A DNA stretch of 64,000 nt from a virus. Taxonomy: Duplodnaviria > Heunggongvirae > Uroviricota > Caudoviricetes. The DNA is taken from IMG/VR virus record IMGVR_UViG_3300045996_002451, positions 147,172 to 211,171 of that record, one strand, 5' to 3'. Each line of letters opens with the position of its first letter. Position 1 is the first letter of the stretch. This document shows positions 3,755 through 55,560 of this stretch, piece after piece. Position numbers and translations under genes: made by a program. The notes under the pieces were generated by a model. The model was not told where the DNA came from. It saw nothing but the letters and a program-made list of their open reading frames with translations, and made no database searches.

Positions 3755-3770
3755 GTAGGACGCGTCATAC
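3755..3770. promoter_or_regulatory. Motif B near-palindrome (GTAGGACGCGTCATAC).
   Basis: Between the gp25-like gene and the glycosyltransferase gene. Confidence 0.45.
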
Positions 3771-3783
3771 ATGGAGCGAGCGG

Positions 3784-4974
3784 GTGTTGTTAAAGTTTGA
3801 TCAGCCTTACCGGGACCTGCGCGTCCTGGGTCTCATTGCCGACATGGCTGCCTGCGGTTACTACCGCATGGAGTATCCGTTTGAGTTCTTACGCCGGGGT
3901 GGGGCCAAGGCCGACACCACCGGTGCCGTCAATCTCCCCCTGCTGCAGGAGTACGACATCATTGTGGTCCAGCGCAGCTACAGCCCGGAACTGTTCGGGA
4001 TGCTGCAAGAGGCCCGGCGCTTCGGTAAGACCGTCCTGTACGAGGTAGACGATTACCTGCACGGCGTGCACCCGCACAGTCCGGCCTACAAGACGTTCCG
4101 ACCCAACGGGATAAACGTGCACTGGGTCGATCAATGGCTGAAGGGATCAGCAGGTCTCCTGACCAGCACTCCGGAGCTGGCGGGCGCCTACGGGCCGCTG
4201 GTGCCGCGTACGTGGGTGCTGCCGAACAACCTCGACTTCGGGATCCGCAACTGGGATCGACCGGCCAGTCGAGATCCGCGGCTGGAAGGCAAGCTGGTGA
4301 TCGGGTGGGCCGGATCCTCGTTTCACCCGGACGACATGTTGCCGCTTCAAGGAAGCCTGAAGAAGGTTCTGGAAAAGTATGGATCGCGGGTGGTGTTTGC
4401 CATCGCCTCCGGTCCGGCGCAGGTACGGCAGTTCCTGCAGCCGCTGAACCTTCCGTCCGAGCAGGTTGTCATCCTGGACCCCGTCCACTTCTGGGACTAC
4501 CCCCAACTCCTTTCCCAGTTTGATATCGGACTTGCCCCGCTTTCCAATACACTCTTCAACCGGTGCAAGTCCGAGCTGAAGCTGCTGGAATACGGCGCTT
4601 GGGGTATCCCGTATGTAGCCTCCAAGGTTGCGCCGTATAACCGCTTCCATCTGGCTAGCGGCGGACACGGAGGTTACCTGGCGACCAACACCCAGGAATG
4701 GGAAGCCGCGCTGGGTGCCCTCGTAGAGGATCCCAACAACTGGGGTGACCGGCACCTGTTCATCAAGGACTACGTCCGGGATCAGCACGACCTGGCGAAA
4801 GCCGCCTACCTGTGGGCAGGTTCGCTGCGTCAAGCGCGCGATCTGGCGCAGTACCAACCCGAGTTACGGTTGACCCCTGCAACGGCGGGTGCGCGCACCC
4901 CCGGCAGGAATGATCGCTGTCCCTGCGAAAGTGGGAACAAGTACAAGAAATGTTGTAGTCCAGCTTACGGATAG
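3784..4974 (+). CDS. GT-B-fold glycosyltransferase (GT4-like) with a C-terminal SEC-C zinc-binding motif.
   Basis: 'ELKLLEYGAWGIPYVAS' is an E-x7-E-type GT4 motif. The C-terminus 'CPCESGNKYKKCC' matches the SecA C-terminal metal-binding (SEC-C) motif. GTG start. Confidence 0.65.
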   Translation: MLLKFDQPYRDLRVLGLIADMAACGYYRMEYPFEFLRRGGAKADTTGAVNLPLLQEYDIIVVQRSYSPELFGMLQEARRFGKTVLYEVDDYLHGVHPHSPAYKTFRPNGINVHWVDQWLKGSAGLLTSTPELAGAYGPLVPRTWVLPNNLDFGIRNWDRPASRDPRLEGKLVIGWAGSSFHPDDMLPLQGSLKKVLEKYGSRVVFAIASGPAQVRQFLQPLNLPSEQVVILDPVHFWDYPQLLSQFDIGLAPLSNTLFNRCKSELKLLEYGAWGIPYVASKVAPYNRFHLASGGHGGYLATNTQEWEAALGALVEDPNNWGDRHLFIKDYVRDQHDLAKAAYLWAGSLRQARDLAQYQPELRLTPATAGARTPGRNDRCPCESGNKYKKCCSPAYG

Positions 4975-4982
4975 GAGTTGTC

Positions 4983-5543
4983 ATGAACCGCAGAAAGTTT
5001 TTTACCGGCCTGGGGTTAGCAGGTACTGGCTCACTCTTACCACCCATCGAGGAGCATCCCTCGGAACTGGTCCGGATCGACCAACCATACTTCGACCAGG
5101 ACGGTCGGGAACAGCTCCCGCTGTACTCTACCTGGAGACTGAGCGCGTTGGCTGTTGCCACCTTGGTCAAAGAAAACGGTCAGGTGGTCGGAAAACTGCA
5201 GGAGATCCAGATCAACTGTTACCGGAAAGTCGAACGCCTTAAGTTCAAAGGTGAAGTTGTTTACCGGTACGGTCCCCGGATCTATCAAGGTGTGTTGACG
5301 CCCTCCACGTTTTCTCCGTGGAGTTGGAACAGCACGCTGCAGCACGAAGTTCTCCACCTAGAAGTCAAAGCGTTGGCAACTAAAAAGTTAGAACGCCCAG
5401 ACTTCCAGATGCGCAATCTACGCATCGAAAGCTCAGATCTCATTAAGTACATGGTCTTTGAAGCTGAGGGTGTCGGTCTTAACTCGCTCAGCGCCTACTG
5501 GCAATACAACCAGTACGTGGACATCGACGGACCTCGTTTTTAA
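4983..5543 (+). CDS. Hypothetical protein with a twin-arginine (Tat)-like signal peptide.
   Basis: The N-terminus 'MNRRKFFTGLGLAGTGSLL' has the RRxFF Tat consensus followed by a hydrophobic h-region. Confidence 0.5.
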   Translation: MNRRKFFTGLGLAGTGSLLPPIEEHPSELVRIDQPYFDQDGREQLPLYSTWRLSALAVATLVKENGQVVGKLQEIQINCYRKVERLKFKGEVVYRYGPRIYQGVLTPSTFSPWSWNSTLQHEVLHLEVKALATKKLERPDFQMRNLRIESSDLIKYMVFEAEGVGLNSLSAYWQYNQYVDIDGPRF

Positions 5544-5548
5544 CTCAT

Positions 5549-5572
5549 GGGGTGTTACACGTGTAACACCCC
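5549..5572. promoter_or_regulatory. 24-bp perfect palindrome GGGGTGTTACACGTGTAACACCCC, the symmetric form of motif A.
   Basis: Intergenic, between the Tat-signal gene and baseplate J. Confidence 0.5.
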
Positions 5573-5584
5573 AACCTTACCACC

Positions 5585-9875: not shown

Positions 9876-11363
9876 ATGCCTACACCTAACTCAGAACGCG
9901 CTATCTATCGGCCTCAACCCTCCGGGGGCGAGCGTTACTTGCCCGGTTGGCACATTGCTCGCACGGATCCGGACAGCCTGGTTTACCGCCTGGTACACCA
10001 ACTGGTCGATGAGTGTGTCCCGCTCCGAGAAGAGCAGGCGCGCGCGTATCAGATGAACTGGTTGACCACCGCGCCCGTGGATGAGCCGCGAACGCAGTGG
10101 ACGTGCGTCTATCCGTTTGACCCGCAAGATGAACTGACCGTGACGGTGACGACCGCCGCCGATCTCGAGATCGAGGTGCGTGCCGCGCTGAGCGATCACG
10201 ACTTTGTGCGGGCGACCGATCCGGTCTGGAAGCTGGACACCCCGCAAGGGCGCCTGGTTTTTCGTAACCTGGCCACGGTGGAAAAGGAGCTGACCTCCGT
10301 CACCACCAGCTACACCGTAACCGGAGAAGCTTCGGGACTGGTCGCTGACGCTAATCTATACTGGCAGGGACAGACGGATGATCCCTGGCAAGTCCTATCG
10401 GCAGACAGTTCCTTGCGGGACGGGGTGACCTTTACCTTGCCGGTCACCGGCGTCATCTCGGTGCGTTACCAGTCCCAGGCACGCTACGCTGACCTGGTCT
10501 CGGGCACGGTGCTCTTAGAGCGTCGCAGCAGCCGCACGGTGCCGTTGCCGCTTACCGTGGAGCCGCTCCTGAACCTCTTCGATGGCTGGGGGTCGATCCT
10601 CGGGATCCCCCGCCTGCCGGATGAGGACAACGTCGCGTACAAAGCACGGCTGCTCGCGGAAGCGGAAGCGCCGCCTAACTCCACGGAGACAGGGGTGATT
10701 CGGGGCATCGCCTCGCGTCTGGGGTTGCTTTCGCGCACCTACTGGAACGGGATCGACGAACTCGAGTTCTCTGAAGAGGAGGTCACCGCGGTCCACCTGG
10801 TCGGTGTGGACATGTTCTTCGGGGTCACCGAGCAGCTTACGCCGGAGCCGCGGGAAAGCGTCACCGAACCGGTAGACACCTACTACGCGTCCTACACGGA
10901 CTGGCGGGAAGGGTGGTACGTCTATGTCGACGGCGTGCCCGCACAGGGCGTGACCGTTTCGGGTAACGTCGTTACACTAGGGGAAGAGACCAGTGGGGTG
11001 GTGACCGCGGCCTACACCGTCGCGCGGTACCAGTTGGAGCGCGACGCGGAAGATTACATCCTCAGCGTGCAGCCAGGTCAAGGCCTGCCGCCCGGTAACT
11101 ACGTGGTCCTTTACTCCCGCCAGGTCCTGGTCCATGGGCTGGGTGCGGAGACCGTGCAGGATGCGCTGCTCCTGACCGCAGCCGGGCTGCCGAATGAACT
11201 CTTCCTAGAGCTGCACCGTACCCTGGCGAGTGGGAGTACCACGTCGCTGGGAAGGGCGGGTTGGGAAACTGCGTATTGGTTTGCTTCCCCGGAAGAGACG
11301 CCGGGGACTACTCAGGTGGCGTTGCCGTTTGACGCGCACCTGACATTGGGTGATGATGAGTAA
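9876..11363 (+). CDS. Tail fibre protein 2, a paralogue of fibre 1.
   Basis: It shares blocks with fibre 1: 'LNLFDGWGSILGIPRLPDEDNVAYKARLLA', 'REGWYVYVDGVP...VSGNVVTLG' and 'GRAGWETAYWFASPEE'. Confidence 0.5.
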   Translation: MPTPNSERAIYRPQPSGGERYLPGWHIARTDPDSLVYRLVHQLVDECVPLREEQARAYQMNWLTTAPVDEPRTQWTCVYPFDPQDELTVTVTTAADLEIEVRAALSDHDFVRATDPVWKLDTPQGRLVFRNLATVEKELTSVTTSYTVTGEASGLVADANLYWQGQTDDPWQVLSADSSLRDGVTFTLPVTGVISVRYQSQARYADLVSGTVLLERRSSRTVPLPLTVEPLLNLFDGWGSILGIPRLPDEDNVAYKARLLAEAEAPPNSTETGVIRGIASRLGLLSRTYWNGIDELEFSEEEVTAVHLVGVDMFFGVTEQLTPEPRESVTEPVDTYYASYTDWREGWYVYVDGVPAQGVTVSGNVVTLGEETSGVVTAAYTVARYQLERDAEDYILSVQPGQGLPPGNYVVLYSRQVLVHGLGAETVQDALLLTAAGLPNELFLELHRTLASGSTTSLGRAGWETAYWFASPEETPGTTQVALPFDAHLTLGDDE

Positions 11364-14714: not shown

Positions 14715-14715
14715 T

Positions 14716-21575: not shown

Positions 21576-22112
21576 ATGGCGATCGATGGAGAGAGTTCGG
21601 ACTTCCCAGAACGGCTCGACGACTGGGGCGAAGCGTTCAAGAACAACCAGTGCCCTCCGGAACGCTTCCGTGCTTCCCGGATGAACGCCCTGCATGACGC
21701 GTTATACAATCTGGAACAGCACACCCGCCGCGTGCTGATCACTGGTGATACCAACCTGCGCACCGATACCGGGGCCGATCGGCCCAAGCTCATGGTCAAG
21801 ACCTTCGTGGTCACCGTAACGGGCGGCGACGCGGAGACCAAGACCGCTAACCTGGAGGCGTTCACCACGGCTGAACTGGCTTTCTGGGACGGTAACCCGC
21901 TGGCCGCTACGCACAACGTGCACCTCTACGTGCGCAAGATCCGGGTAGACAACACCGAGAAGCAGTCCTACGTGGCCGGGTTAGCCTCCCCCGTAGTGGC
22001 TAGCGGCTCCGGCCAAACGATCACGCTCGCCCCTCTTCGCGATACCACCGGGGAAACCAACCTCAAGATTGGCAATGGTGATTACATCGTGACTTTGCTG
22101 ATTACGCGTTAG
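21576..22112 (+). CDS. Hypothetical structural-module protein.
   Basis: 178-aa ORF, 2-nt spacing from the upstream gene. Confidence 0.4.
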   Translation: MAIDGESSDFPERLDDWGEAFKNNQCPPERFRASRMNALHDALYNLEQHTRRVLITGDTNLRTDTGADRPKLMVKTFVVTVTGGDAETKTANLEAFTTAELAFWDGNPLAATHNVHLYVRKIRVDNTEKQSYVAGLASPVVASGSGQTITLAPLRDTTGETNLKIGNGDYIVTLLITR

Positions 22113-32555: not shown

Positions 32556-32561
32556 TCACGG

Positions 32562-32577
32562 TATGACGCGTCATACA
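32562..32577. promoter_or_regulatory. Motif B perfect palindrome (GTATGACGCGTCATAC).
   Basis: Immediately 5' of the 32580 terminator. Confidence 0.5.
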
Positions 32578-32579
32578 GC

Positions 32580-32607
32580 CCGAGAGATCGATCTCTCGGG
32601 CTTTTTC
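32580..32607 (+). terminator. Rho-independent terminator.
   Basis: Palindrome CCGAGAGATCGATCTCTCGG followed by GCTTTTTCTTG. Confidence 0.6.
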
Positions 32608-38956: not shown

Positions 38957-38980
38957 TTGGACCTCTCGTACAATACTGGT

Positions 38981-38996
38981 GTATGACGCGTCATAC
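38981..38996. promoter_or_regulatory. Motif B perfect palindrome (GTATGACGCGTCATAC).
   Basis: Immediately 3' of the 38920 terminator. Confidence 0.5.
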
Positions 38997-39019
38997 AATA
39001 TTTTGAACCGGAGATCTCG

Positions 39020-44415: not shown

Positions 44416-45018
44416 GTGGCTAACAGCTTTGAGAACGAGATGAGCGAGAGCGCGCAGCATCTGGGCATCTGTTACCAGAAGCTGGCAATCCCCATGCGGC
44501 TCTGCCACATGACCAAGCGCTTGATCAAGCTAAAAACCAACCCTTACGACGCCTTTGCCATCCATGAAGGTCGGCACTACGCGCTGGAGTTGAAAAGCTT
44601 GGACGAGCACGGCAGCTTTCCACTGGTCAACATCGAACCTCATCAGATCGAAGGTCTCCAGTCCGCGGCGATCTCCGGGGCCAAAGCCTTCTTACTGGTT
44701 AACATGAGAAGGCAGAAGGGCAAGACAGCGAACCGCGCGTGGTCGCTTCCTATTGAGTACTGGGATGAACTCCTGGCTTTACTGGAAACGGCCAAGCGGA
44801 AGAGTATTCCCTACCGCTACTTTACGGAAGAGCTGCTCTTTACTGAGTTGCCTCGCCGCCGAGTAGAGAACGCGTTTGGTGCAGAGGAGCTGGTCTGGGA
44901 CCTCCGGGTTCCGCTGGGTATCGTAACTGAGCCGGTCAAGCTGCCTGCGTTAGATGATGAGCCTCCTTATGATCCGGAGAACCCTTGGGCGTTGCCTCCG
45001 GTTGAAGTACGCGTGTAG
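44416..45018 (+). CDS. Putative PD-(D/E)xK nuclease (VRR-NUC / RecU-like).
   Basis: 'YDAFAIHEGRHYALELKS' fits a D ... E-x-K catalytic core. Tentative. Confidence 0.3.
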   Translation: MANSFENEMSESAQHLGICYQKLAIPMRLCHMTKRLIKLKTNPYDAFAIHEGRHYALELKSLDEHGSFPLVNIEPHQIEGLQSAAISGAKAFLLVNMRRQKGKTANRAWSLPIEYWDELLALLETAKRKSIPYRYFTEELLFTELPRRRVENAFGAEELVWDLRVPLGIVTEPVKLPALDDEPPYDPENPWALPPVEVRV

Positions 45019-45024
45019 CACGCG

Positions 45025-45040
45025 TCATACATAGAGTCCG
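45025..45040. promoter_or_regulatory. Motif B variant (GTAGCACGCGTCATAC).
   Basis: Upstream of the GroES-like gene. Confidence 0.4.
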
Positions 45041-45604: not shown

Positions 45605-45609
45605 GCCCT

Positions 45610-45960: not shown

Positions 45961-45962
45961 CG

Positions 45963-46614: not shown

Positions 46615-46626
46615 CCGACGGTCTTT

Positions 46627-46657
46627 AAGGTCACCTGGAAACGGGTGACCTTTTTTA
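46627..46657 (+). terminator. Rho-independent terminator upstream of the sigma factor gene.
   Basis: AAGGTCACC-tggaaacg-GGTGACCTT followed by TTTTTT. Confidence 0.6.
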
Positions 46658-46662
46658 ACGCT

Positions 46663-47289: not shown

Positions 47290-47306
47290 ACAGCTTAAAG
47301 AAACTC

Positions 47307-47343
47307 AGCTAGTGGTGGCCCTAGGGCCACCACTAGCTTTTTG
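47307..47343 (+). terminator. Rho-independent terminator.
   Basis: A 32-bp perfect palindrome AGCTAGTGGTGGCCCTAGGGCCACCACTAGCT followed by TTTTT. Confidence 0.65.
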
Positions 47344-47356
47344 TTACACGGGTAAT
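47343..47356. promoter_or_regulatory. Motif A variant (GTTACACGGGTAAT).
   Basis: Immediately after the 47307 terminator, upstream of the nuclease gene. Confidence 0.4.
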
Positions 47357-47423
47357 TGCGTGAGTCAAGCGAGGGCATCTTCGCTACATTAAAGTAGATG
47401 TAGAGCGCTTGCACTCCCCCAAG

Positions 47424-47432
47424 GGGTAACAT
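47424..47432 (+). promoter_or_regulatory. Motif C (GGGTAACAT) overlapping the TTG at 47432.
   Basis: GGGGTAACATTGAG. Confidence 0.4.
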
Positions 47433-48604
47433 TGAGTAGTAAGCAGCACCACCGGAAACGAGGAATCAGTATGGGTGTACGACTCGCCAAACCAGTCCTG
47501 GACTGGGCAGCCACCGAAGACGTGGCCACCGCGCTTCATCTGGAGCGTGATGTCTCTCCGCGAGACAACAGCTACATCCGCCTTTCCGGGCTCTACCAGT
47601 GTAAGCGTCAGCTCGCGTACCGCGTTAACTGGTTCAAGGAAGGGCGTGAAGAGCTGCCGATGGGTGCGCAGACCCTGGGGATCTTTGACGTCGGTCACGC
47701 GATGCACTACCACCTACAGATGCGGCTGTCCAAGCACGGAACGCTGGGTTGGGTGGACGCAGATCCGGTGATCGCTGAAAACGCGGACGGGAAGAAGCGC
47801 CTGGACTGGGAAGGAAACTTCGAAGTCTCCCTGATCGACCATGAGTACCGGGTGCGAGGTACGTTGGACTGTCTGACGTATCCGCTGCTCCTGAAGACCG
47901 TGGAGCGCGATGGTCAGACGTTCGAGACGTACGAGGTTGTGCCAGAAGGTACGGAAGGTGCCAAACGGTACATCATCGACATCAAGACGTGTTCAGCACG
48001 CGACACGTGGAAGGTCAACAAGAAAACGGGGAACCTGGAACGTAAGCCTTCCGGTTTCGAAAAGCTGGAGGCGCCTAAGCCGGAGCACGTGACTCAGGCC
48101 ATGATGTATAGCTGGATGGTGACCCGTCCGAACTTCTCGACGGAGCGCGAACCCAAGCCCCTGGCCGTGATGCCAGACGTCATGATCCTGTACGTGGCGA
48201 AGGACGTACCACCTGATTACTACTCTCGCTATCCCGAGATGTACCCCGAGGACAAGCGCCTGCTCCACTCGCCGTACAAGATCTTCCGGGTAGCGGCAGA
48301 CATGGTGCGGGTGAACACCGCCCTGACCAAGGTGAACTCGGTCTGGTCAGACCTGGATAACAACCGTCTTCCGAGTCGTGATTATCAACACCGGGTGGAC
48401 TGGCCTGCGTATCCTTGCCTTGATTGTGGCTTCCGCAAGGAGTGCTACTCCGAAGAAGGTTTCTTCAAAGCGGATCCTGAAGACTACCCGCTGCGCGTCC
48501 TTTACCGACGTGAACAGCTTCTGGAGCAAATCGATGCCCGCAAAACCGCAGACGCTCAAGATGGTACGAACGGTGGCGGAGGTAGCAGTCTACCAATTGG
48601 GTAA
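47432..48604 (+). CDS. RecB-family / Cas4-like PD-(D/E)xK exonuclease with a C-terminal Cys cluster.
   Basis: 'GIFDVGHAMHYHLQ', 'IDHEYRVRGTLDCL', 'YIIDIKT' (D-x-K), the 'QAMMY' (QxxxY) motif, and C-terminal 'CLDCGFRKEC'. TTG at 47432 or ATG at 47472. Confidence 0.5.
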   Translation: MSSKQHHRKRGISMGVRLAKPVLDWAATEDVATALHLERDVSPRDNSYIRLSGLYQCKRQLAYRVNWFKEGREELPMGAQTLGIFDVGHAMHYHLQMRLSKHGTLGWVDADPVIAENADGKKRLDWEGNFEVSLIDHEYRVRGTLDCLTYPLLLKTVERDGQTFETYEVVPEGTEGAKRYIIDIKTCSARDTWKVNKKTGNLERKPSGFEKLEAPKPEHVTQAMMYSWMVTRPNFSTEREPKPLAVMPDVMILYVAKDVPPDYYSRYPEMYPEDKRLLHSPYKIFRVAADMVRVNTALTKVNSVWSDLDNNRLPSRDYQHRVDWPAYPCLDCGFRKECYSEEGFFKADPEDYPLRVLYRREQLLEQIDARKTADAQDGTNGGGGSSLPIG

Positions 48605-48984: not shown

Positions 48985-49193
48985 ATTGGTCAGACACTCA
49001 AGGCTTTTGCGGATGCAGTAGACCGGTCCACCGACACGACTGACAGTTCCAGCGACCGTGTTTAGGTGGTAGGGACGTCCGCAGCGTCTTTTTCAAGGTA
49101 GCCGCAGACGTGGCTACTTGCATCTTTACACTCTGGCAGCGCGGGCACTCCGGCCAACCATCCCCATTCCAGGTGGTGGTGAGCCGTTCTTCT

Positions 49194-49574
49194 TTAGGTT
49201 TGGCCATGGGGCTCAACCGGCTCAGGCAGCATGCTGGCGTCCAGTACCGCGTCTACGTAGGCGCCGATACTCTCTGCCAAGCTACGACTCCGGGGGTCTG
49301 CCGAGGCGCTGGCCAATACGTGTAGGCCTTTTTCGCGGACTTGCTTCAAAGTCGTGTGCAGCGTGTTCATGTTACGCCGGACCAACTGCAGCTCGTCCGT
49401 CACACGAACTAGCTCTAACGCCGCGCGCGGTGCGGTCTTCTGCAACAGAAAGTATTTTTGCGTACGCTCGACGGCTTCCCCGTGTGCGATCCGCAACTCT
49501 CCGGCCAACGTGTCCCGTTCAGCGCGCAGCGCGTCCAGCTCGGCTTGCAAAGACTCCAGGGTAGGTTCCGACAT
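49194..49574 (-). CDS. Hypothetical coiled-coil protein.
   Basis: An ATG at 49574 is preceded by AAGGAG. 'LESLQAELDALRAERDTLAGELR' is coiled-coil-like. Confidence 0.4.
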   Translation of the reverse strand: MSEPTLESLQAELDALRAERDTLAGELRIAHGEAVERTQKYFLLQKTAPRAALELVRVTDELQLVRRNMNTLHTTLKQVREKGLHVLASASADPRSRSLAESIGAYVDAVLDASMLPEPVEPHGQT

Positions 49575-49578
49575 AGGG

Positions 49579-49956
49579 CTACTCCTTCTTCTTACTCCGC
49601 CGCGCCTGTTCTTCCAGAATGATCTTACGGATGGACTTGGCGGCATCCTTCACGTTGCCGTAATGGCTGACCAGCCCGTCGAAGTCCGCCATAAGTTGGA
49701 CCCGTTCCAGGTTCTCGTTCAACGGCTTCTGCGGAAAGTGAATGCCGTTCTCGGCATACTTCCAGTCTTCCAGATGACCCACCAGGCAGCGCGCGCCTGC
49801 GGCGTTGACGAACTTTCCCTCGACCCAGTGTTCGGGTCGGGTAATCACGATGCGCGCGAGCACCTCATCGGACAGCTTCTTCACCGCGGCGGTAATCCGG
49901 CTCAATCGTTCAGAAGCAGTGGGCTCAGTGTAGCCCTTAGTTGCACCCCAGGCCAT
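49579..49956 (-). CDS. Hypothetical protein.
   Basis: An ATG at 49956 is preceded by AAGGAAG. Confidence 0.4.
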   Translation of the reverse strand: MAWGATKGYTEPTASERLSRITAAVKKLSDEVLARIVITRPEHWVEGKFVNAAGARCLVGHLEDWKYAENGIHFPQKPLNENLERVQLMADFDGLVSHYGNVKDAAKSIRKIILEEQARRSKKKE

Positions 49957-49960
49957 GGTA

Positions 49961-50374
49961 TTATCTCTTCCTTTTTTGTTGCCCTTTGATGTACGGGGCA
50001 CGGTCGTCCAGCTCAGTGAAGACAAAGCTGCAGTGATGACAACTGGTGTTCGCTTTCAAGATCTGATGCTTGCAGACAGGGCACTGTTTCTCGGCACTTG
50101 CGGTCATCCGAGAGCCTTCTTGGCTAAGCCAGGTCGAGGTTTCCCTGTCCCTGGCTAGTTGGATCCGCTGACTAACATCTCCGCTGTAGTGCCGTTTCAT
50201 CCGTTCTTGATAGGTCTGCTTCGGCTCGATTGCTTTGATAACGTGCTGCTGCAAGTACGTGAACTTTTCCCCGCACTCCGGACTGTGGTGGGTGATCTCG
50301 ACGTCCAACAGGTAGATCCAAATCTCCTGGAGACAGAAGGGGCAACGTACCAACCAACGAAGTTTGTCTGCCAT
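49961..50374 (-). CDS. Zinc-ribbon protein.
   Basis: 'CPFC ... HHSPEC' and 'CPVCKH ... CHHC' knuckles. Confidence 0.4.
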   Translation of the reverse strand: MADKLRWLVRCPFCLQEIWIYLLDVEITHHSPECGEKFTYLQQHVIKAIEPKQTYQERMKRHYSGDVSQRIQLARDRETSTWLSQEGSRMTASAEKQCPVCKHQILKANTSCHHCSFVFTELDDRAPYIKGQQKRKR

Positions 50375-50379
50375 AGGAT

Positions 50380-50772
50380 CTAGACTTCAGGTCGAGGCGG
50401 GGACTTACTGGGACCTTCGGCCCCGACCATCGCGATCCTCGATATCAAGCTGGAAAAGAAGGGATGTTCGTCCATGCCATTCTGCTCGGTCCAATCGATC
50501 AGCTCCCCGAAAAGTGCGTAGTAGTCCCGCTCGCGCAGTTCGTACGCCAGGTTCGCCTTTTCGAGGTAGTCCAGTGAGCGCTGCTGGCGAGCTACTAGCT
50601 CCAACAAGAAGACGACGTCTCGATCGTAGAAGTCGACGTAGTCATATTTTTTCCACCGGCTCCGCGTGGGTAGGTTCTTTTCGATCCACGCCAGGCGCGT
50701 CGCGATCTCTTCTTCGACGAACCAGTGCCACTTTCTTTTGGACTTGGCCTGCTTCTTCTTTTTCTTAGCCAT
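50380..50772 (-). CDS. Hypothetical protein with a Lys-rich N-terminus.
   Basis: 'MAKKKKKQAKSKRK ...'. GGAGGA RBS. Follows a - strand terminator and a motif A site. Confidence 0.4.
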   Translation of the reverse strand: MAKKKKKQAKSKRKWHWFVEEEIATRLAWIEKNLPTRSRWKKYDYVDFYDRDVVFLLELVARQQRSLDYLEKANLAYELRERDYYALFGELIDWTEQNGMDEHPFFSSLISRIAMVGAEGPSKSPPRPEV

Positions 50773-50803
50773 TAGCTCGTCCTCCAGGTAAGTATAGTAG
50801 GTT

Positions 50804-50835
50804 CAAAAAGAGGGAGGCTCAATTGAGCCTCCCTC
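50804..50835 (-). terminator. Rho-independent terminator on the - strand.
   Basis: GAGGGAGGCTC-aatt-GAGCCTCCCTC. The plus-strand AAAAA at 50805-50809 reads as a T-run on the - strand. Confidence 0.6.
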
Positions 50836-50842
50836 GGTGGGT

Positions 50843-50856
50843 GTTACCCGTGTAAC
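50843..50856. promoter_or_regulatory. Motif A (GTTACCCGTGTAAC).
   Basis: Between the SPFH gene stop and the - strand terminator. Confidence 0.5.
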
Positions 50857-50859
50857 CGG

Positions 50860-51717
50860 TTAGCGCAGTTGAATGTTGGTGAACGGGATCCCGGGAGTAC
50901 CGACCCGCGGCACTTCGCCGCCCGCCTTCTTCCACTTCTCGATCGCCAGTTTGCGCAGCTCCAGCTTTTTGATCTTGATCGCAGTGCTGCCGCTCTGGGA
51001 ACCCAGCAACCGGTTTTGTTCGGCTTGCTGCTGGGCCTTGATCAGGATGGTCTGGGCTTCCTGCTCGGCACGCTTCTGCTCGGCCTGCGCGTTACCCAGT
51101 TCTTGCCGGGCTTCGAGGCGTTCCTTGATACGAGCTTCGATCTCATTGGGGCGCCGCATGTCCTGGATGTACAGGTTGTCCAGGGTAAAGCCGGACTCAC
51201 TCATCGATGCACGCAAGGCGGACTGAGCCTGGTCGCCGAAGAGGGCCTTCTTGTTGGCCACGATCTCGGCGAAACTCATCTTGGTGGCGGCGTTGACCAT
51301 CGCTTCCTGGGTAAAAACCAGAAGGATCTCGTGGAACTTGCTCATGTCCGCGGTGCCGAAGGTCTCAAAGACGCGCACGGCGTTGGACTTATCCACGTGA
51401 AACGCGACAGTGGTGTCCACCTCGATCGGGACACCCTCCTGGGTGACCACCACGATGGCGTCCCCTTCGGCGTCCGACTCGTCCACCTTCTTCTGGGCGA
51501 AGCTAACGTTGATCGTCTTGGTGGGGAAGTCCTCTACCCGCTCCTGGTCCAGCGGGTTGACGCTGACCACGCTCGGCTCGAGCGGTTGGGAGTTAATCCC
51601 GGTGCGCCCGTTGTACTTGATCCCCACATGGGAGGGCGGGATCTGGTGACAGCCGGAGGTGAACCCCAGGACGATCAGGGCGCCGAGCCCGCAGAGCACG
51701 TTTTTCCAGTTCTTCAT
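50860..51717 (-). CDS. SPFH / Band-7 (prohibitin / HflC-like) protein with a signal peptide and possible lipobox.
   Basis: N-terminal 'LCGLGALIVLGFTSGC'. The SPFH core is followed by a long Ala/Gln/Glu-rich coiled coil 'EARIKERLEARQELGNAQAEQKRAEQEAQ'. Confidence 0.6.
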   Translation of the reverse strand: MKNWKNVLCGLGALIVLGFTSGCHQIPPSHVGIKYNGRTGINSQPLEPSVVSVNPLDQERVEDFPTKTINVSFAQKKVDESDAEGDAIVVVTQEGVPIEVDTTVAFHVDKSNAVRVFETFGTADMSKFHEILLVFTQEAMVNAATKMSFAEIVANKKALFGDQAQSALRASMSESGFTLDNLYIQDMRRPNEIEARIKERLEARQELGNAQAEQKRAEQEAQTILIKAQQQAEQNRLLGSQSGSTAIKIKKLELRKLAIEKWKKAGGEVPRVGTPGIPFTNIQLR

Positions 51718-52640
51718 TAGTTTCCTCCCACGGCCACTGCGGCCTCGCCGACGACTACCGAGACGCCCTTACCACTGGGCACATCCGGGAAGCGCCCGTT
51801 CCAGGCGTCGATCGCCGCTTCGTCAATTTCCAAGCTCATCATTTCCAGCGAAGCGCTGTGGGTCTTCGTGGCGGTCATCTCCCGGGCCTTGGCCTGGGCG
51901 TTGGCGGTAATGAGCGCCGTCTTGCGCTCGATCTCCGCCTGCTCCTTGTGCGTCTTGGCGATCTCCGTACCGGTCATGATGTTGACCCGCTGGTTGATCT
52001 TGGTCTGCACGTTAGCATCCGGGTAGGGACGCAGGAAGAAGGCACGGTAGATGGTGATCCCCTTGCTCTCGAGTTTCTTCTTGAGGTTCAGGGTAAGCTT
52101 CTTGCCCGCGTCTTCCAGGGCCGGGGCGATTAACGTCTGCGCATCATACTCCGGACCGATGTCGTTCGCGGCATCCTGCAGCGCCCGGCGAATGTGCTGG
52201 CTCTGGATCGTCCGGATATCCGCTTTGCCGAAGTTGGCAAAGACGGTACCGAGCTTATCCGGATCGATGTGGTAAAGCACGCCGACATCAAAGAGAGTGG
52301 ACGCGGTGTCCGAGGTGGTGATGCGCACCGCGTCGGCCTGCTTCAGATCGCCGACCCGAGCATCCTGGGTGTAGAGGGCGAGCTGCGGCTTCGTGGGGAA
52401 CGTGTACAACTCATACATCGGCGCCACGTAGTGACGTCCGGGCTTGAAGATCTTCACGGTACCGTCCGGGTTGATCACCAGACCGTTCTTGGTGTTTGCG
52501 CCTGCACGGGCGCTGTACATCACCCCGACTTCACCGGCGTCTACCCGGGTCCCGGTGAAGAACCACACGCCCCAGACCACCACAATGACCGCCAAGGCGG
52601 CGATCAGGGCACATCCTACGTTGCTTGATTTACTGGACAT
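51717..52640 (-). CDS. SPFH / Band-7 (HflK-like) membrane protein.
   Basis: N-terminal TM 'CALIAALAVIVVVWGVWFF'. SPFH-type core with a C-terminal coiled coil 'EQAEIERKTALITANAQAKARE'. Confidence 0.6.
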   Translation of the reverse strand: MSSKSSNVGCALIAALAVIVVVWGVWFFTGTRVDAGEVGVMYSARAGANTKNGLVINPDGTVKIFKPGRHYVAPMYELYTFPTKPQLALYTQDARVGDLKQADAVRITTSDTASTLFDVGVLYHIDPDKLGTVFANFGKADIRTIQSQHIRRALQDAANDIGPEYDAQTLIAPALEDAGKKLTLNLKKKLESKGITIYRAFFLRPYPDANVQTKINQRVNIMTGTEIAKTHKEQAEIERKTALITANAQAKAREMTATKTHSASLEMMSLEIDEAAIDAWNGRFPDVPSGKGVSVVVGEAAVAVGGN

Positions 52641-52861
52641 TAGTTTCCTTTTCCGAACCGAGCTTGAAGGTCCTGCTCGATTTCTTGGTGTGCGCGCTGT
52701 TTCAACTCGGCGTCCAGCGCCGCGCGCTGACGTTTTTCCTCATCCTCTTGGGAGAGGCGCTGCCAGTCCTGCTTGATCCGTCTCCACACGCGCGCCGCGG
52801 TGAAGCCGAGCACTAAGCCCAGGATCAGCAGTAAAAACATGTTCAGCCAGATTGCTGTCAT
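52640..52861 (-). CDS. Small single-TM protein co-encoded with the SPFH pair, an NfeD-like accessory candidate.
   Basis: 'IWLNMFLLLILGLVLGF' TM segment then a charged coiled coil. ATGT/ATGA overlaps on both sides. Confidence 0.4.
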   Translation of the reverse strand: MTAIWLNMFLLLILGLVLGFTAARVWRRIKQDWQRLSQEDEEKRQRAALDAELKQRAHQEIEQDLQARFGKGN

Positions 52862-54510
52862 TCTTGGTCCTTGTGATTTCTCACCGCGTCCAGGAACGCG
52901 TTGAACAGGGGGTGCGCTGCCTCGAACTGACTCTTGTACTCGGGGTGGTACTGGACACCGACAAAGAAAGGATGCACGGATGGATCCAGCTCAACCGCAT
53001 CGTACGTATCTCGACCATTGTCCTTGGCCATCGCAGAGATGGTCAAGCCTCCCTCGATCAGTTTTGGCGCATACTCCGGGTTCAGTTGGTACCGGTGCCG
53101 GTAGCGCTCTTGCACGACTTCCCCTTCGATGTAGATCTCCTGAAGGCGCGTCCCGGACCCAAAGGCCACCGAGACGTTTCCCTTACGTAAGGCACCCCGA
53201 ATATCGGTGGAGGAGAAGCGTTGGATAACCACCGGATGCGGCGTCTTCGGATCGATCTCCGTACTGTTTGCCCCGGCCAGGGCCAGCACGTTTTGCGCGT
53301 ACTCGACCACCGCCATCTGGAACCCATAGCAGAGTCCCAGGTAAGGCAGCTTCTTTTCTCGCGCGTAACGGATCGCACGGATCTTACCGTCGGCGCCGCG
53401 GCTGCCCCACCCCTGCGGGATGATCACCCCGTCGCAGTACTTCATGGTGGTCTCGAAGCTTTCAGGATCTTGTTCGATCCCTTCCGCATCGATCCATTCT
53501 ACCAGGACCCGCACGCCGGTATGCGTCTCAGAGTGCTTCAGCGCCTCAATGACGGACACGTAGCTATCGGGAAGCTGGTAGTCGCCGGAACCGAGGTACT
53601 TGGCCACGATGCCGATGCGAACGGCGGCGCCCTCTCCGTTCAAGAGGAGATTGACCCGCTTCTTCCAGTTCGCTAACTTGGGCCGGGCAATGACCGTAAC
53701 CCCCAGGCGCTTCAGTAGTTTCTGCGCGAACTTCTGCTCTTCGAACAAGAGCGGCACCTGGTAGATGGTCTTCACGTCCGGGGCCAGGATGATCTCATCC
53801 TCACGCAGGTGCGTGTTGGCTGCGATCTTCTCCTTGCGCACCCCGTCTACCACGTACTTAGCGGCGGAACGAAGCACCAGGAAATCCGGCTGGATCCCCG
53901 CATCATAAAGCTGGCGAATGGAGAGCTGTACCGGTTTGCTCTTCATCTCGCCCAGGCTCTCGATGTACGGCAGGTACGCCACGTGAACGTGCGCCACCCG
54001 TCCGGGATGCTTCTTGGTCATCATCCGCGCAGCTTCCAGGAAGACCTGGATCTGGTACTCACCCACCGTGCCGCCAAACTCGCAGATGACGAAGTCGGCT
54101 TCATGGTGTTTCCCGCAGGCTTCCACGCGGCGGATGACCGCCTCGGGCACGTGGGGTACCATCTCCAAGGTCTTCCCGCCGAAGGCGTGGGAGCGCTCCT
54201 CATCCATGATCTCGCGAAGCACGCTGCCCATCGTGAGGTAGTTGTGGGCCGTCGTGTCTTCACCGATGAAGCGCTCGTAGTGTCCCAGGTCTTGGTCGGT
54301 CTCGAGCCCGTCCGAAGTGACAAACACTTCGCCGTGCTCCACCGGGTTCATCGTGCCTGCATCGCCATTCAAGTACGCGTCGGCTTTCATGCAAGCCACG
54401 GAATAACCGCGCGTCCGAAGTAGCGTGCCAAGGGAAGCAGCCACGATCCCCTTACCCAGACCGGAGATCACGCCTCCGGAAATGAAAATGTAACGTGTGT
54501 GGTTAGCCAT
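52858..54510 (-). CDS. pyrG: CTP synthase.
   Basis: N-terminal 'TRYIFISGGVISGLGKGI' is the canonical PyrG start. The GATase domain has 'LGLCYGFQMAVVEYA' and 'YHPEY'. 550 aa. Confidence 0.85.
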   Translation of the reverse strand: MANHTRYIFISGGVISGLGKGIVAASLGTLLRTRGYSVACMKADAYLNGDAGTMNPVEHGEVFVTSDGLETDQDLGHYERFIGEDTTAHNYLTMGSVLREIMDEERSHAFGGKTLEMVPHVPEAVIRRVEACGKHHEADFVICEFGGTVGEYQIQVFLEAARMMTKKHPGRVAHVHVAYLPYIESLGEMKSKPVQLSIRQLYDAGIQPDFLVLRSAAKYVVDGVRKEKIAANTHLREDEIILAPDVKTIYQVPLLFEEQKFAQKLLKRLGVTVIARPKLANWKKRVNLLLNGEGAAVRIGIVAKYLGSGDYQLPDSYVSVIEALKHSETHTGVRVLVEWIDAEGIEQDPESFETTMKYCDGVIIPQGWGSRGADGKIRAIRYAREKKLPYLGLCYGFQMAVVEYAQNVLALAGANSTEIDPKTPHPVVIQRFSSTDIRGALRKGNVSVAFGSGTRLQEIYIEGEVVQERYRHRYQLNPEYAPKLIEGGLTISAMAKDNGRDTYDAVELDPSVHPFFVGVQYHPEYKSQFEAAHPLFNAFLDAVRNHKDQE

Positions 54511-55298
54511 CAGTCCTCAAAGTCGTAAAGACGCACCAGTACTTCCGGTTCCGGTTCCGCTGCAGGGGGTTCTGGGTTGGGTGAGAACGCTCGAAGTTGG
54601 GCCGCTTCGGTGTAGTAGTTTCCGTTTCGGTTCTTAAGGCGTGCTTTTCTTAACGTTTCCAAACCGCTAAAGAAAATACGCAGCATGATTTGTTCCGGAG
54701 GAACGTTAGCCCAACGGCTGATCGAGGTCACCCGTTCCTGTACGGTGCGCCACGGCATATTGGGGTTTACGGCGTCCTGGAGTTCGTCGAGTACGCTATC
54801 GATCCGGTCTTCCCGCGTCTCCTCTCGGCGACTAAAGAGGGGAATAGAGGGGTCGACAGGGTTAAGGCCTTGGATGTAGTTCTCATAAAACCGCACCTGA
54901 TTAGCGCGCTCAACCTCCTGCATGCTGATACGTTTCTGCCTAACATCCGAGAAGTCGATGGCGGGTGGTGTGGGCTTGGCAGCGTTCTTCCAGTACTGAC
55001 CTAAATTTGGGAAACTGATTGCTTCTATCTTTTCCAACGAAGCTAATAAGCGATTCGCTTCGCCTCCGCCCGCGATACTCTCCGCGCGTGCAGCACCCGT
55101 CTCTCCAGACACTCCAGTTGGATCTGGAAGGGGTGTTGAAACTGGGTCTTGCGACACAACGCCTTGAGCTTCAGCTTCGCTTCCGTCAGGCTGGAAAGTG
55201 GACTTTCGACGAGCTTTTTCACGTAAACGGGGAAGCTTCCCTTTTCCACCTGACTTAGTTGGTTTGCCGCTACCAGTTCCATCTTTTGGATCGTCCAT
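54510..55298 (-). CDS. Hypothetical protein ending in 'VRLYDFED'. Start uncertain.
   Basis: C-terminal motif shared with the family. The listed start overlaps the 55043-55540 ORF. An alternative in-frame ATG lies at 54923. Confidence 0.35.
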   Translation of the reverse strand: MDDPKDGTGSGKPTKSGGKGKLPRLREKARRKSTFQPDGSEAEAQGVVSQDPVSTPLPDPTGVSGETGAARAESIAGGGEANRLLASLEKIEAISFPNLGQYWKNAAKPTPPAIDFSDVRQKRISMQEVERANQVRFYENYIQGLNPVDPSIPLFSRREETREDRIDSVLDELQDAVNPNMPWRTVQERVTSISRWANVPPEQIMLRIFFSGLETLRKARLKNRNGNYYTEAAQLRAFSPNPEPPAAEPEPEVLVRLYDFED

Positions 55299-55540
55299 AC
55301 CGTCACTACCCCTCCCAAAAACCCGGGTTCTTCTCTCTGCTGCACCACCAGGGCAGTTCGGTATTCATCCTGTTCCGCCCGCTGGAATAGTAGCTCTTCC
55401 GCCTCTGCTTGCGTGGCGCACTGTTCTACAGGTACCAGGTGATACCACAACGTGCTCCAGAGAGAGTCGTAGTCTTCTTCGCTAGGCCGCACGAAGGTAA
55501 ACAGACTGTAGACGATTTGGAAATCGGTGGTGGCAGCCAT
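55043..55540 (-). CDS. Hypothetical protein.
   Basis: An ATG at 55540 immediately follows a motif B half-site. Confidence 0.35.
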   Translation of the reverse strand: MAATTDFQIVYSLFTFVRPSEEDYDSLWSTLWYHLVPVEQCATQAEAEELLFQRAEQDEYRTALVVQQREEPGFLGGVVTVWTIQKMELVAANQLSQVEKGSFPVYVKKLVESPLSSLTEAKLKLKALCRKTQFQHPFQIQLECLERRVLHARRVSRAEAKRIAY

Positions 55541-55544
55541 AGTG

Positions 55545-55560
55545 TAACACGCGTCATACA
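55545..55560. promoter_or_regulatory. Motif B variant (GTAACACGCGTCATAC).
   Basis: Abuts the 55540 start codon on the - strand. Confidence 0.4.

What the first reader, a model, noticed from the sequence alone, without database searches (positions are those of the whole stretch)
3755..55560. Second recurrent palindrome GTATGACGCGTCATAC (motif B) flanking terminators
Perfect 16-bp palindromes lie at 32562 and 38981. Near-palindromes or half-sites ending ACGCGTCATACA lie at 3755, 45025 and 55545. Two copies directly abut rho-independent terminators, one 5' and one 3' of the hairpin. Two abut start codons. It is distinct from motif A. It may be an operator for a second regulator, or a recognition site for a nuclease, recombinase or partition protein.
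Basis: seen in the sequence. Interest (0 to 1): 0.65.

Follow-up and report, generated by a model that had tools for sequence, protein, structure and literature searches.

The report
Conserved palindromic DNA-binding site in jumbo phage
A 16-18 bp palindrome (TGTATGACGCGTCATACA) recurs at gene boundaries of an uncultivated giant phage and is kept at the same spot in a distant relative, so it is most likely a docking site for a still unidentified regulatory DNA-binding protein: real, but a familiar kind of element.

Summary
GTATGACGCGTCATAC occurs six times with at most 2 mismatches (0.19 expected at up to 3 mismatches). The 12-mer ACGCGTCATACA occurs five times. All five strong copies lie in the 5.8% of the window that is non-coding (P about 7e-7). 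The window is part of a 211-kb metagenomic jumbo-phage contig with no close relative.

Motif B survives in relatives whose proteins are only 44-57% identical. One relative has GGTATTACGCGTAATACC at the orthologous position, in the same stop codon / palindrome / terminator arrangement, with a symmetric G:C to T:A change. Another has GTATGACGCGTAATAC.

The family consensus is GTA-NN-ACGCGT-NN-TAC. Orientation does not follow transcription, the distance to start codons varies, and half the copies cannot form a hairpin. This fits a double-stranded DNA site for a dimeric protein (operator-like). It fits an RNA hairpin or a directional promoter poorly.

No binding protein was found in the window. 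The MluI core is neither enriched nor avoided. The 18-mer is not enriched in bacterial genomes.

Verdict: genuine, conserved cis-element; a new member of a known kind (phage palindromic operator-like repeats); mechanism inferred, not shown. Separately, motif A is strikingly similar to parS.

The parts
3753..3772 (.). Motif B copy 1, GTGTAGGACGCGTCATACAT (core 3755-3770, 1 mismatch, T4 to G). It fills the 30-nt spacer between a baseplate-like gene (3355-3753) and a glycosyltransferase gene (GTG 3784, SD GGAG 3773-3776).
21692..21707 (.). Weak motif B copy, GCATGACGCGTTATAC (2 mismatches), inside gene 21576-22112 (codons LHDALYN). It is built from rare codons: TTA is 2.9% of Leu, AAT 13% of Asn, CAT 28% of His. 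The DNA pattern is not shared by orthologues. Probably a real low-affinity site.
32561..32576 (.). Motif B copy, perfect 16-bp palindrome. It lies 5 nt after the stop codon of gene 31575-32555 (last gene of the structural block) and directly abuts the terminator.
32577..32607 (+). Intrinsic terminator (11-bp stem AGCCCGAGAGA/TCTCTCGGGCT plus a T run) next to motif B. A -10-like GGGTAACAT follows at 32614.
38980..38997 (.). Motif B copy, perfect 18-bp palindrome TGTATGACGCGTCATACA. It lies 28 nt after terminator stem 38920-38951 and 6 nt after a -10-like TACAAT (38969-38974). It lies 22 nt before TTG 39020 (SD GGAG) of a lipobox-bearing ORF.
45013..45032 (.). Motif B copy, GTGTAGCACGCGTCATACAT (core 45015-45030, 2 mismatches). 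The stop codon TAG (45016-45018) of the RecU-like gene lies inside it. It lies 31 nt before the ATG 45062 of a GroES/Cpn10-like gene. An extra ACGCGT at 45009 forms the inverted repeat ACGCGTG-TAG-CACGCGT.
55542..55561 (.). Motif B copy, GTGTAACACGCGTCATACAA (core 55544-55559, 2 mismatches), in the minus-strand gene block. On the minus strand it lies 3 nt upstream of ATG 55540 (gene 55043-55540). It lies about 17-33 nt downstream of a sigma70-like promoter, GTGACA-17-TACACT (55612-55584).

Best explanation
Motif B is a double-stranded DNA recognition site with consensus GTA-NN-ACGCGT-NN-TAC and optimum TGTATGACGCGTCATACA. I propose it is bound by a dimeric sequence-specific DNA-binding protein. 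That protein is most likely phage-encoded and lies outside this 64-kb window. It would be separate from whatever reads motif A.

The sites sit at gene and operon boundaries and act as operators on transcription:
- At 38981 the site begins where a TACAAT -10 element would place the transcription start.
- At 55544 it lies in the 5' leader between a sigma70-like promoter and the ATG.
- At 3755 it overlaps a GGGTAGTGT -10-like element.
- At 32561 it is welded to the terminator that closes the structural-gene block.

Binding would therefore block or modulate initiation or elongation at these junctions (repression or roadblock).

Shown: the motif is real, non-random, intergenic, dyad-symmetric, conserved in position and sequence across deep divergence, and not a consistent RNA structure.

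Inferred: that a protein binds it, that the protein is a dimer, and that the effect is on transcription.
For: - Statistics: 6 copies against 0.19 expected. The 12-mer occurs 5 times against about 0.004 expected. All 5 strong copies are intergenic, P = 6.5e-7.
- Conservation: relative JAXOUH010034734.1 has proteins 44-51% identical. It carries GGTATTACGCGTAATACC between the stop of the orthologue of gene 31575-32555 and a strong terminator, the same architecture as window 32561. Positions 5 and 12 changed symmetrically.
- The closest relative, L025 (57% helicase identity), carries GTATGACGCGTAATAC at a gene junction. The chance of such a match there is about 1.5e-4.
- Variation across the 8 family members is confined to positions 4-5 and 12-13. 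The outer GTA/TAC and inner ACGCGT stay fixed apart from position 2 in the weak coding copy at 21692. This fits two contact patches per half-site.
- Orientation is not tied to transcription. The better half faces away from the gene at 55544 and in L025.
- A sixth copy lies in coding DNA and is built from rare codons. Relative L042 also has 3 of 7 copies of its own palindrome in coding DNA. These point to a DNA-level rather than mRNA-level signal.
- RNA folds are weak, -1.9 to -6 kcal/mol, and no better than shuffles. At 45015 a different hairpin wins. Rfam gives no match.
- The 18-mer is not enriched in 596 Gb of bacterial genomes (5 stretches, about 9 expected). Hits in viral contigs are single and unrelated; the one inspected (L017) lies in coding sequence. 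The motif is therefore lineage-specific.
Against: - No DNA-binding protein was identified. Pfam, PHROGs and NCBIfam scans of essentially all window ORFs found only an orphan, weakly ECF-sigma-like protein at 46645-47289.
- The position relative to predicted promoters is not constant. The promoters themselves are only consensus matches.
- A site just upstream of a terminator is not a classical operator position.
- The three imperfect window copies all keep the same (right) half perfect. This could hint at an asymmetric, directional element, although it has a 1-in-4 probability by chance.
- Only about 64 kb of 211 kb could be examined. More distant relatives (L031, L042, L043, L147) lack motif B.
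Confidence: 0.5

Rival explanations
1. Motif B is a centromere-like or clamp-loading site for a ParB/KorB-family protein. B would be one of two orthogonal 16-bp palindromic site families (A and B). Each would nucleate a ParB-like CTPase that spreads or slides, to organise, position or globally silence the jumbo-phage genome, as KorB does from its OB sites on plasmid RK2.
For: - B is a 16-bp perfect palindrome whose 6-bp core has 2C, 2G, 1A and 1T. This is the composition described for Burkholderiales parS sites (PMC5450999).
- The companion motif A, TGTTACACGTGTAACA (5553), differs from the universal parS TGTTNCACGTGAAACA at one position. Eight A sites match the relaxed pattern TGTTNCACGTGNAACA against 0.22 expected (consensus from PMC7022226 and PMC5450999).
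- Arms co-vary symmetrically between lineages, as in ParB/parS specificity switching.
- A naturally asymmetric parS with one arm differing at two positions is documented (PMC5450999).
- Some copies lie in coding DNA.
Against: - The sequence of B does not resemble any parS I could compare it with. Its central dinucleotide is GC, not CG.
- No ParB-like (ParBc) domain was found in any window ORF.
- Restriction to tiny intergenic spacers is not typical of parS.
- A lytic-looking jumbo phage has no obvious need for partition.
Confidence: 0.12
2. Motif B is a contiguous phage-specific promoter, or the -10/initiator element of one. It would be read by a phage sigma factor (for example the sigma-like ORF 46645-47289) or by a phage RNA polymerase, and would drive a temporal gene class.
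For: - There is a 19-20 bp contiguous conserved block, GTGTA-NN-ACGCGTCATACA, with the 12-mer on the + strand in all five strong copies.
- Three copies are followed by a purine-rich or SD tract and a + strand gene within 13-31 nt.
- A start within the 5' arm of the 32577 hairpin would let such transcripts escape that terminator.
- A weak ECF-type sigma-like ORF exists.
Against: - At 55544 the element points antisense to all surrounding genes.
- Distance to start codons varies from 3 to 31 nt.
- The perfect copies are symmetric, and in JAXOUH both halves changed together.
- No -35/-10 bipartite pattern or ECF-type AAC-N16-CGT arrangement accompanies the sites.
- The sigma-like ORF has no detectable homologues, whereas the motif is conserved in relatives.
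Confidence: 0.12
3. Motif B is an RNA-level hairpin: a 5' or 3' stabiliser, a processing site for a phage endoribonuclease, or a nut/boxB-like antitermination signal. It would act in the transcript rather than in DNA.
For: - The perfect copies are exactly those next to terminators (32561, 38981 and the JAXOUH copy).
- The G:C to U:A double change and the extra flanking pair (T:A in 38980, G:C in JAXOUH) preserve pairing.
- The positions, promoter-proximal leader and 'stop codon / hairpin / terminator', parallel lambda nutL and nutR (own knowledge).
- At 38981 the predicted transcript would begin with the hairpin.
Against: - Four of 8 family members break the stem at positions 4/13 or 5/12, leaving 3+1 bp.
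- Folding energies are -1.9 to -6 kcal/mol, with z-scores of +0.5 to -1.3 for the five intergenic copies (+0.9 for the coding copy at 21692). None is better than shuffles.
- No single RNA sequence is shared by all copies once 55544 is read on its transcribed strand, whereas a dsDNA sequence is.
- One copy lies in coding DNA.
- Rfam gives no match.
Confidence: 0.1
4. Motif B is a recognition or cleavage site for a site-specific nuclease, nickase or recombinase. Examples are strand-specific nicks as in T5 or phiKMV-type phages, a crossover site, or a cruciform target for the adjacent RecU-like resolvase.
For: - The 12-mer lies on one strand in all five window copies.
- The site has a 7-2-7 dyad with a palindromic GC centre.
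- Two perfect copies bracket the module 32.6-38.95 kb in mirror arrangement (B-terminator ... terminator-B).
- The stop codon of the RecU-like gene lies inside copy 45015, and a GIY-YIG gene lies at 43051-43557.
Against: - The strand bias rests on only three informative copies and is reversed in L025.
- The bracket is absent in JAXOUH, which has a single copy in 31.6 kb.
- No recombinase was found.
- Strict intergenic placement and association with promoter/terminator landmarks are not explained by this model.
Confidence: 0.06

Closest known systems
17-bp palindromic repeats of Cluster O mycobacteriophages (5'-TGTTCGGNNNCCGAACA; PMC4351075)
   Same: Both are short dyad-symmetric repeats scattered through a lytic phage genome. 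Both are mostly in intergenic gaps with a minority in coding DNA. Orientation is unrelated to transcription, arms are invariant with a tolerated centre, and the binding factor and function are unknown.
   Different: Cluster O has more than 30 copies per roughly 70-kb genome. Motif B has 6 copies in 64 kb. Motif B has a contiguous 16-18 bp dyad rather than 7-3-7. There is no sequence similarity and the host phylum is different.
Stoperators of Cluster A mycobacteriophages (L5 gp71 repressor sites; as summarised in PMC4351075)
   Same: Both have many copies of one short site in very short intergenic spacers, often at or overlapping stop codons. Bound protein is thought to stop transcription. Motif B copies at 3755, 32561 and 45015 lie 0-5 nt from, or overlap, stop codons.
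   Different: Stoperators are asymmetric 13-14-mers orientated with transcription and belong to temperate phages with a known repressor. Motif B is palindromic, is not orientated with transcription (55544, L025), and has no known repressor.
ParB-parS / KorB-OB palindromic sites (universal parS TGTTNCACGTGAAACA; Bsr parS families; PMC7022226, PMC5450999)
   Same: Both are 16-bp perfect palindromes with a GC-rich 6-bp core. Lineage-specific variants differ by symmetric changes. Asymmetric natural variants are known. KorB-type sites are multi-copy and sit in promoter or intergenic regions (the KorB point is from my own knowledge).
   Different: Motif B has a central GC, not CG, and no sequence match to parS. 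No ParB-like gene was found in the window. It is the companion motif A, not B, that matches parS.
Classical phage operators for dimeric HTH repressors (lambda OR/OL, P22, 434; own knowledge)
   Same: Both are 14-18 bp dyad-symmetric sites overlapping or flanking promoters, with half-sites of unequal quality.
   Different: Classical operators are clustered in one or two control regions next to the repressor gene. Motif B copies are dispersed over more than 50 kb. One sits upstream of a terminator, and no repressor gene is adjacent.
Lambda nut sites (boxB RNA hairpin; own knowledge)
   Same: The positional pattern is similar: one site in a promoter-proximal leader and one between a stop codon and a terminator.
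   Different: nut sites act as RNA hairpins. Half of the motif B copies cannot fold, and the shared feature is a dsDNA sequence.

Membership tests
Palindromic operator of a dimeric DNA-binding regulator | Dyad-symmetric site of about 14-20 bp | tested here: met
   Two perfect 16/18-bp palindromes. Other copies match 6-7 of 8 symmetric pairs.
Palindromic operator of a dimeric DNA-binding regulator | Located in regulatory (non-coding, promoter-proximal) DNA | tested here: inconclusive
   5 of 5 strong copies are intergenic (P = 6.5e-7). Promoter proximity rests only on consensus-type -10/-35 matches at 38969, 55612-55584 and 3751.
Palindromic operator of a dimeric DNA-binding regulator | Conserved across relatives, with symmetric (both half-site) substitutions | tested here: met
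   JAXOUH has GGTATTACGCGTAATACC at the orthologous position. L025 has GTATGACGCGTAATAC.
Palindromic operator of a dimeric DNA-binding regulator | Cognate DNA-binding protein encoded by the element | tested here: not met
   No HTH, RHH or ParB domain in the window ORFs; only a weak sigma70_r4 hit. The remaining 147 kb of the genome was not available.
Cluster A stoperator | [quoted passage not shown] | tested here: not met
   Motif B is palindromic. The imperfect copies at 55544 and in L025 face the opposite way relative to genes.
Cluster A stoperator | Short intergenic location at or near stop codons | tested here: met
   Copy 3755 is 1 nt after a TAG. Copy 32561 is 5 nt after a TAG. Copy 45015 contains the TAG. 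The L025 copy contains a TAA.
ParB/parS or KorB/OB site | 16-bp palindrome with central CG and similarity to a known parS family | tested here: not met
   It is a 16-bp palindrome, but the centre is GC and there is no match to TGTTNCACGTGAAACA. Motif A matches instead (PMC5450999).
ParB/parS or KorB/OB site | ParB-family protein encoded in the same replicon | tested here: inconclusive
   None in the 64-kb window. The rest of the 211-kb contig could not be fetched.
Phage-specific (T7-type or sigma-dependent) promoter | Constant orientation and spacing relative to downstream genes or transcription starts | tested here: not met
   The element is antisense at 55544 and in L025. It lies 3-31 nt from start codons. 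One copy faces a terminator.
Phage-specific (T7-type or sigma-dependent) promoter | Phage RNA polymerase or sigma factor present | tested here: inconclusive
   Orphan ORF 46645-47289 has sub-threshold hits: Sigma70_r4 22.1 bits against a cutoff of 24.1, and TIGR02937 at 1.3e-4. It has no homologues. The AF2 model had pLDDT 46.
Structured RNA element (terminator, boxB-like hairpin, Rfam family) | Stable hairpin maintained in all copies, or a covariance-model match | tested here: not met
   MFE is -1.9 to -6 kcal/mol, no better than shuffles. Four of 8 copies break the stem. Rfam gives no hits.
Restriction-site avoidance or enrichment (MluI ACGCGT) | Hexamer count deviates from expectation | tested here: not met
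   28 observed against 23.2 +/- 4.6 expected.

The most novel reading that the evidence does not exclude
Motifs A and B are two orthogonal centromere-like site families. A is parS-like. B is a diverged 16-bp palindrome. They would load phage-encoded, or hijacked host, ParB/KorB-type CTP-dependent clamps. From gene boundaries these clamps would organise and temporally silence blocks of a jumbo-phage genome. This would be a KorB-style global control system in a lytic giant virus.
Probability: 0.1. Interest if true: 0.7.

Novelty: new member of a known kind. Interest (0 to 1): 0.4.

Why it matters
Gene regulation in uncultivated jumbo phages is essentially unknown. This window shows at least two short palindromic site families under strong purifying selection across lineages whose proteins have diverged to about 45-55% identity.

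This gives concrete, testable handles (oligonucleotides for pull-down or DAP-seq) for finding the regulators of a whole clade of 200-500 kb soil phages. The conserved 'stop codon / palindrome / terminator' junction marks the boundary between the structural and replication modules.

In itself the element is an ordinary type of feature, an operator-like repeat. Its value is as an entry point, not as a new principle.

Tried and rejected
- Source contig and close relatives. Megablast against INPHARED found nothing, and tblastn with the 1064-aa virion protein found no match. The exact-protein look-ups tried (two window ORFs and P0001) were not on record, so the contig could not be retrieved. IMG/VR and GTDB scans found only relatives of 25-33% identity or none. 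The JGI metagenome scan gave only short contigs.
- Collection-wide motif scans. GTANNACGCGTCATACA in IMG/VR gave only singletons in unrelated contigs; the one inspected (L017) encodes MLYDASYNH. Motif A's 14-mer gave only singletons. The 18-mer in GTDB genomes gave 5 stretches against about 9 expected.
- Hybrid A/B site at 55544. The left half, GTGTAAC, equals a motif A arm. It is in direct rather than inverted orientation, so I rejected it as coincidence.
- ECF-type bipartite promoter (GTAAC-N16-CGTC) linking A and B: no consistent spacing.
- MotA-box-like role: no -10 element at a fixed distance downstream of B.
- Class I activator position for the GGGTAACAT element: -60 in the window against about -85 in JAXOUH, so not conserved.
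- Cassette bracketed by the two perfect copies: not reproduced in JAXOUH.
- Single-sequence structure prediction of the sigma-like ORF and of the gene downstream of copy 55544: pLDDT about 46 for both, so unusable, and no fold search was run. PDB sequence searches were empty.
- Literature search for the exact motifs: nothing relevant.
Full report
**What the window is**

The 64-kb window has about 60% G+C. It carries a plus-strand block (15-48604) and a minus-strand block (about 49000-63696).

- The plus-strand block encodes baseplate and virion proteins. These are followed by a dCTP deaminase, a DnaB-like ATPase, kinases, a dCMP-deaminase-like protein, a GIY-YIG protein, a RecU-like resolvase and a GroES-like protein.
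- The minus-strand block encodes CTP synthase, a ThyX-like protein, a phosphatase and many small ORFs.
- A 100% identical protein is recorded on a 211,171-bp JGI metagenome contig, so this is part of a jumbo phage.
- Megablast of 30000-48000 against INPHARED found no match. The best protein-level relatives are only 41-57% identical.
- The source contig itself could not be fetched.

Yes.

- GTATGACGCGTCATAC occurs at 32561 and 38981 (perfect), 3755 (1 mismatch), and 45015, 55544 and 21692 (2 mismatches each). That is 6 matches against 0.19 expected at up to 3 mismatches, and no shuffle reached 6.
- The 12-mer ACGCGTCATACA is identical in five copies. A position-weight scan shows a clean gap between these sites and everything else.
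- The five strong copies all lie between genes. My gene map leaves only 5.8% of the window non-coding, giving P = 6.5e-7.
- Only copy 32561 truly abuts a terminator. Copy 38981 lies 28 nt beyond one.
- The ATG after 3755 is out of frame; the gene starts at GTG 3784 behind a GGAG.
- MluI sites are neither enriched nor avoided.

**Anatomy of the copies**

- 3755 fills a 30-nt spacer between two co-directional genes.
- 32561 lies 5 nt after the stop codon of the last structural-block gene. It runs straight into the hairpin 32577-32602. After the T run comes a -10-like GGGTAACAT.
- 38980-38997 is an 18-bp perfect palindrome. It starts 6 nt after a TACAAT hexamer, where a transcript would begin, and lies 22 nt before the next gene.
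- 45015 contains the TAG stop codon of the RecU-like gene and precedes the GroES-like gene by 31 nt.
- 55544 lies in the minus-strand block. It sits between a sigma70-like promoter (GTGACA-17-TACACT) and the ATG at 55540.

**Conservation in relatives**

This is the key evidence.

- JAXOUH010034734.1 (L032/L033) has proteins 44-51% identical and conserved gene order. It has GGTATTACGCGTAATACC 12 nt after the stop codon of the orthologue of 31575-32555 and 2 nt before a strong terminator hairpin. This is the same three-part junction as window 32561. Both halves changed together, G5 to T and C12 to A.
- L025 is the closest relative (57% identity in the helicase-like protein). It has GTATGACGCGTAATAC, one half of each type, at an overlapping stop/start junction. 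A 15/16 match in 13.5 kb has a chance of about 1.5e-4.
- L024 has the intergenic palindromes TGCAGTACGCGTACTGCA and CGAGTAGACGTCTACTCG, which share the ACG|CGT core.
- More distant or lower-G+C relatives (L031, L042, L043, L147) lack motif B.
- Across the eight family members, variation is confined to positions 4-5 and 12-13. The consensus is GTA-NN-ACGCGT-NN-TAC.

**DNA or RNA?**

- As RNA the copies fold at only -1.9 to -6 kcal/mol, no better than shuffled sequence. At 45015 a different hairpin is preferred. Four of eight members break the stem.
- When 55544 is read on its transcribed strand, no single RNA sequence is common to all copies. One double-stranded sequence is.
- The coding copy at 21692 uses TTA (2.9% of Leu codons), AAT and CAT in a gene with 76% GC3. 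Its orthologues encode similar residues with unrelated DNA. This suggests selection on the DNA.
- Relative L042 has seven copies of its own palindrome GATAC-A(GG/CC/TC)T-GTATC, three of them in coding DNA.
- Rfam gives no match.
- I therefore place the function at the DNA level.

**Promoter or binding site?**

- The three imperfect window copies keep the same half perfect, but this has a 1-in-4 probability by chance.
- In L025 the better half is on the other strand, and the site overlaps the downstream start codon.
- At 55544 the element would fire antisense.
- Distance to start codons ranges from 3 to 31 nt.
- No bipartite -35/-10 or ECF-like spacing accompanies the sites.
- A directional promoter is therefore disfavoured. 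An orientation-independent dimer-binding site is favoured.

**Who binds?**

Unknown.

- Pfam, PHROGs and NCBIfam scans of virtually all window ORFs found no HTH, RHH or ParB domain. The only hit was an orphan 214-aa ORF (46645-47289) with sub-threshold sigma70 region 4 / ECF matches.
- That ORF has no homologues. Its single-sequence AF2 model was unusable, as was that of the gene downstream of copy 55544.
- The 18-mer is not enriched in bacterial genomes. Hits in IMG/VR are single copies in unrelated contigs; the one inspected (L017) lies in coding sequence. A widespread host regulon motif is therefore unlikely, and a phage-lineage-specific factor is the more economical assumption.

**Context: motif A**

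The window's other repeat is TGTTAC(A/C)CG(T/G)GTAACA.

- It has at least ten copies in both orientations, mostly in 18-50-nt spacers. It also occurs before or after terminators.
- It is likewise conserved at orthologous junctions. Window 25311 corresponds to L033 13209. L025 6194 carries an identical copy. L043 8423 corresponds to window 20519.
- Its perfect copy differs at one position from the published universal parS consensus TGTTNCACGTGAAACA.
- This raises the possibility that both families are read by ParB/KorB-like proteins. For motif B there is no sequence support and no ParB gene in view.

**Comparison with known systems**

- The best described analogue is the 17-bp palindromic repeat of Cluster O mycobacteriophages. 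It is also of unknown function and also independent of orientation (PMC4351075).
- L5-type stoperators share the stop-codon-proximal placement, but they are asymmetric and orientated with transcription.
- Classical operators share the dyad but are clustered next to their repressor gene.

**Verdict**

Motif B is a genuine, selectively maintained, lineage-specific cis-element. It is most probably an operator-like protein-binding site acting at gene and operon boundaries (confidence about 0.5). The rivals are a ParB/KorB-type site (0.12), a phage promoter (0.12), an RNA hairpin (0.10) and a nuclease or recombinase site (0.06). It is a new member of a known kind and of moderate interest.

Noticed in passing
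window 5548-5573, 14715-14730, 20518-20533, 25311-25326, 30019-30034, 33718-33731, 43568-43583, 47343-47356, 50842-50857, 59824-59839; coding copies at 11618 and 40038: Motif A, TGTTAC(A/C)CG(T/G)GTAACA, is parS-like. The perfect copy TGTTACACGTGTAACA has one mismatch to the universal parS consensus TGTTNCACGTGAAACA. Eight sites match TGTTNCACGTGNAACA with at most 2 mismatches (0.22 expected). It occurs in both orientations, mostly in tiny intergenic spacers, and three copies lie next to terminators. It is conserved at orthologous junctions in L033, L025 and L043. The copy at 5548 is a 26-bp perfect palindrome.
   Followed up: partly
window 1520, 14104, 31563, 32614, 47424; L031 about 8730 and 16690; L033 about 18905 and 19795; L147 about 6310: A -10-like element GGGTA(A/T)NAT recurs across the clade. 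It is GGGTAACAT in the window, GGGTATAAT in L031, GGGTAAAAT/GGGTAAACT in JAXOUH and GGGTACAAT in L147. It often follows terminators. In the window several copies lie only 0-5 nt before annotated start codons that lack a Shine-Dalgarno sequence. This suggests either mis-called starts or unusual (leaderless?) initiation.
   Followed up: partly
window 54510-55298, 55616-56014, 62521-62802, 62799-63134, 63140-63421, 63421-63696 (all minus strand): Several small minus-strand proteins, including a tandem array of about 92-aa paralogues, end with the same C-terminal tail ...(V/I)RLYDFE(D/E). It shows up as DNA repeat families D1 and D10. It could be a shared docking or targeting peptide.
   Followed up: no
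window 46645-47289 (+): An orphan 214-aa ORF has sub-threshold ECF-sigma / sigma70 region 4 matches (Pfam 22.1 bits against a cutoff of 24.1; TIGR02937 E = 1.3e-4; phrog_1740). No homologue was found among the 5.8 billion clusters searched. It lies just upstream of the strong terminator 47307-47338.
   Followed up: partly
window 34911-35531, 37369-37881, 40407-41303, 52858-54510, 57809-59383, 3784-4974, 11350-14100: There is a dense nucleotide-metabolism set: dCTP deaminase, an AAA_33 kinase, a dCMP-deaminase-like protein, CTP synthase and an unusually long (524 aa) ThyX-like protein. There are also glycosyltransferase domains, one inside a 916-aa protein of the virion-gene block. Together these are suggestive of DNA base hypermodification.
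   Followed up: no
L042 1030, 4256, 5639, 9980, 16970, 19685, 20820: A relative with 46% protein identity carries its own 14-bp palindrome GATAC-A(GG/CC/TC)T-GTATC. It has seven copies in 23 kb, four in short spacers and three in coding DNA. The architecture is the same as motif A, with symmetric arm changes. This suggests site and binder have co-evolved across the clade.
   Followed up: partly
window 45009-45025: The inverted repeat ACGCGTG-TAG-CACGCGT places the stop codon of the RecU-like gene in the loop of a 7-bp hairpin (-8.9 kcal/mol, z = -2.3). It overlaps the left half of motif B copy 45015.
   Followed up: no
window 30011-30473 and 38255-38646: Two 'intergenic' gaps of about 400 nt have no ORF in my gene list, which was compiled from ORFs of 80 aa or more. 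The first begins with motif A followed directly by ATGATG (30035). Both probably hold small unannotated genes.
   Followed up: no
window 50860-51717 and 51717-52640 (minus strand); 39020-39469 (+): There are two tandem paralogues of phrog_200 ('lipoprotein'). Separately, the ORF immediately downstream of motif B copy 38981 bears a lipobox (LAGC).
   Followed up: no
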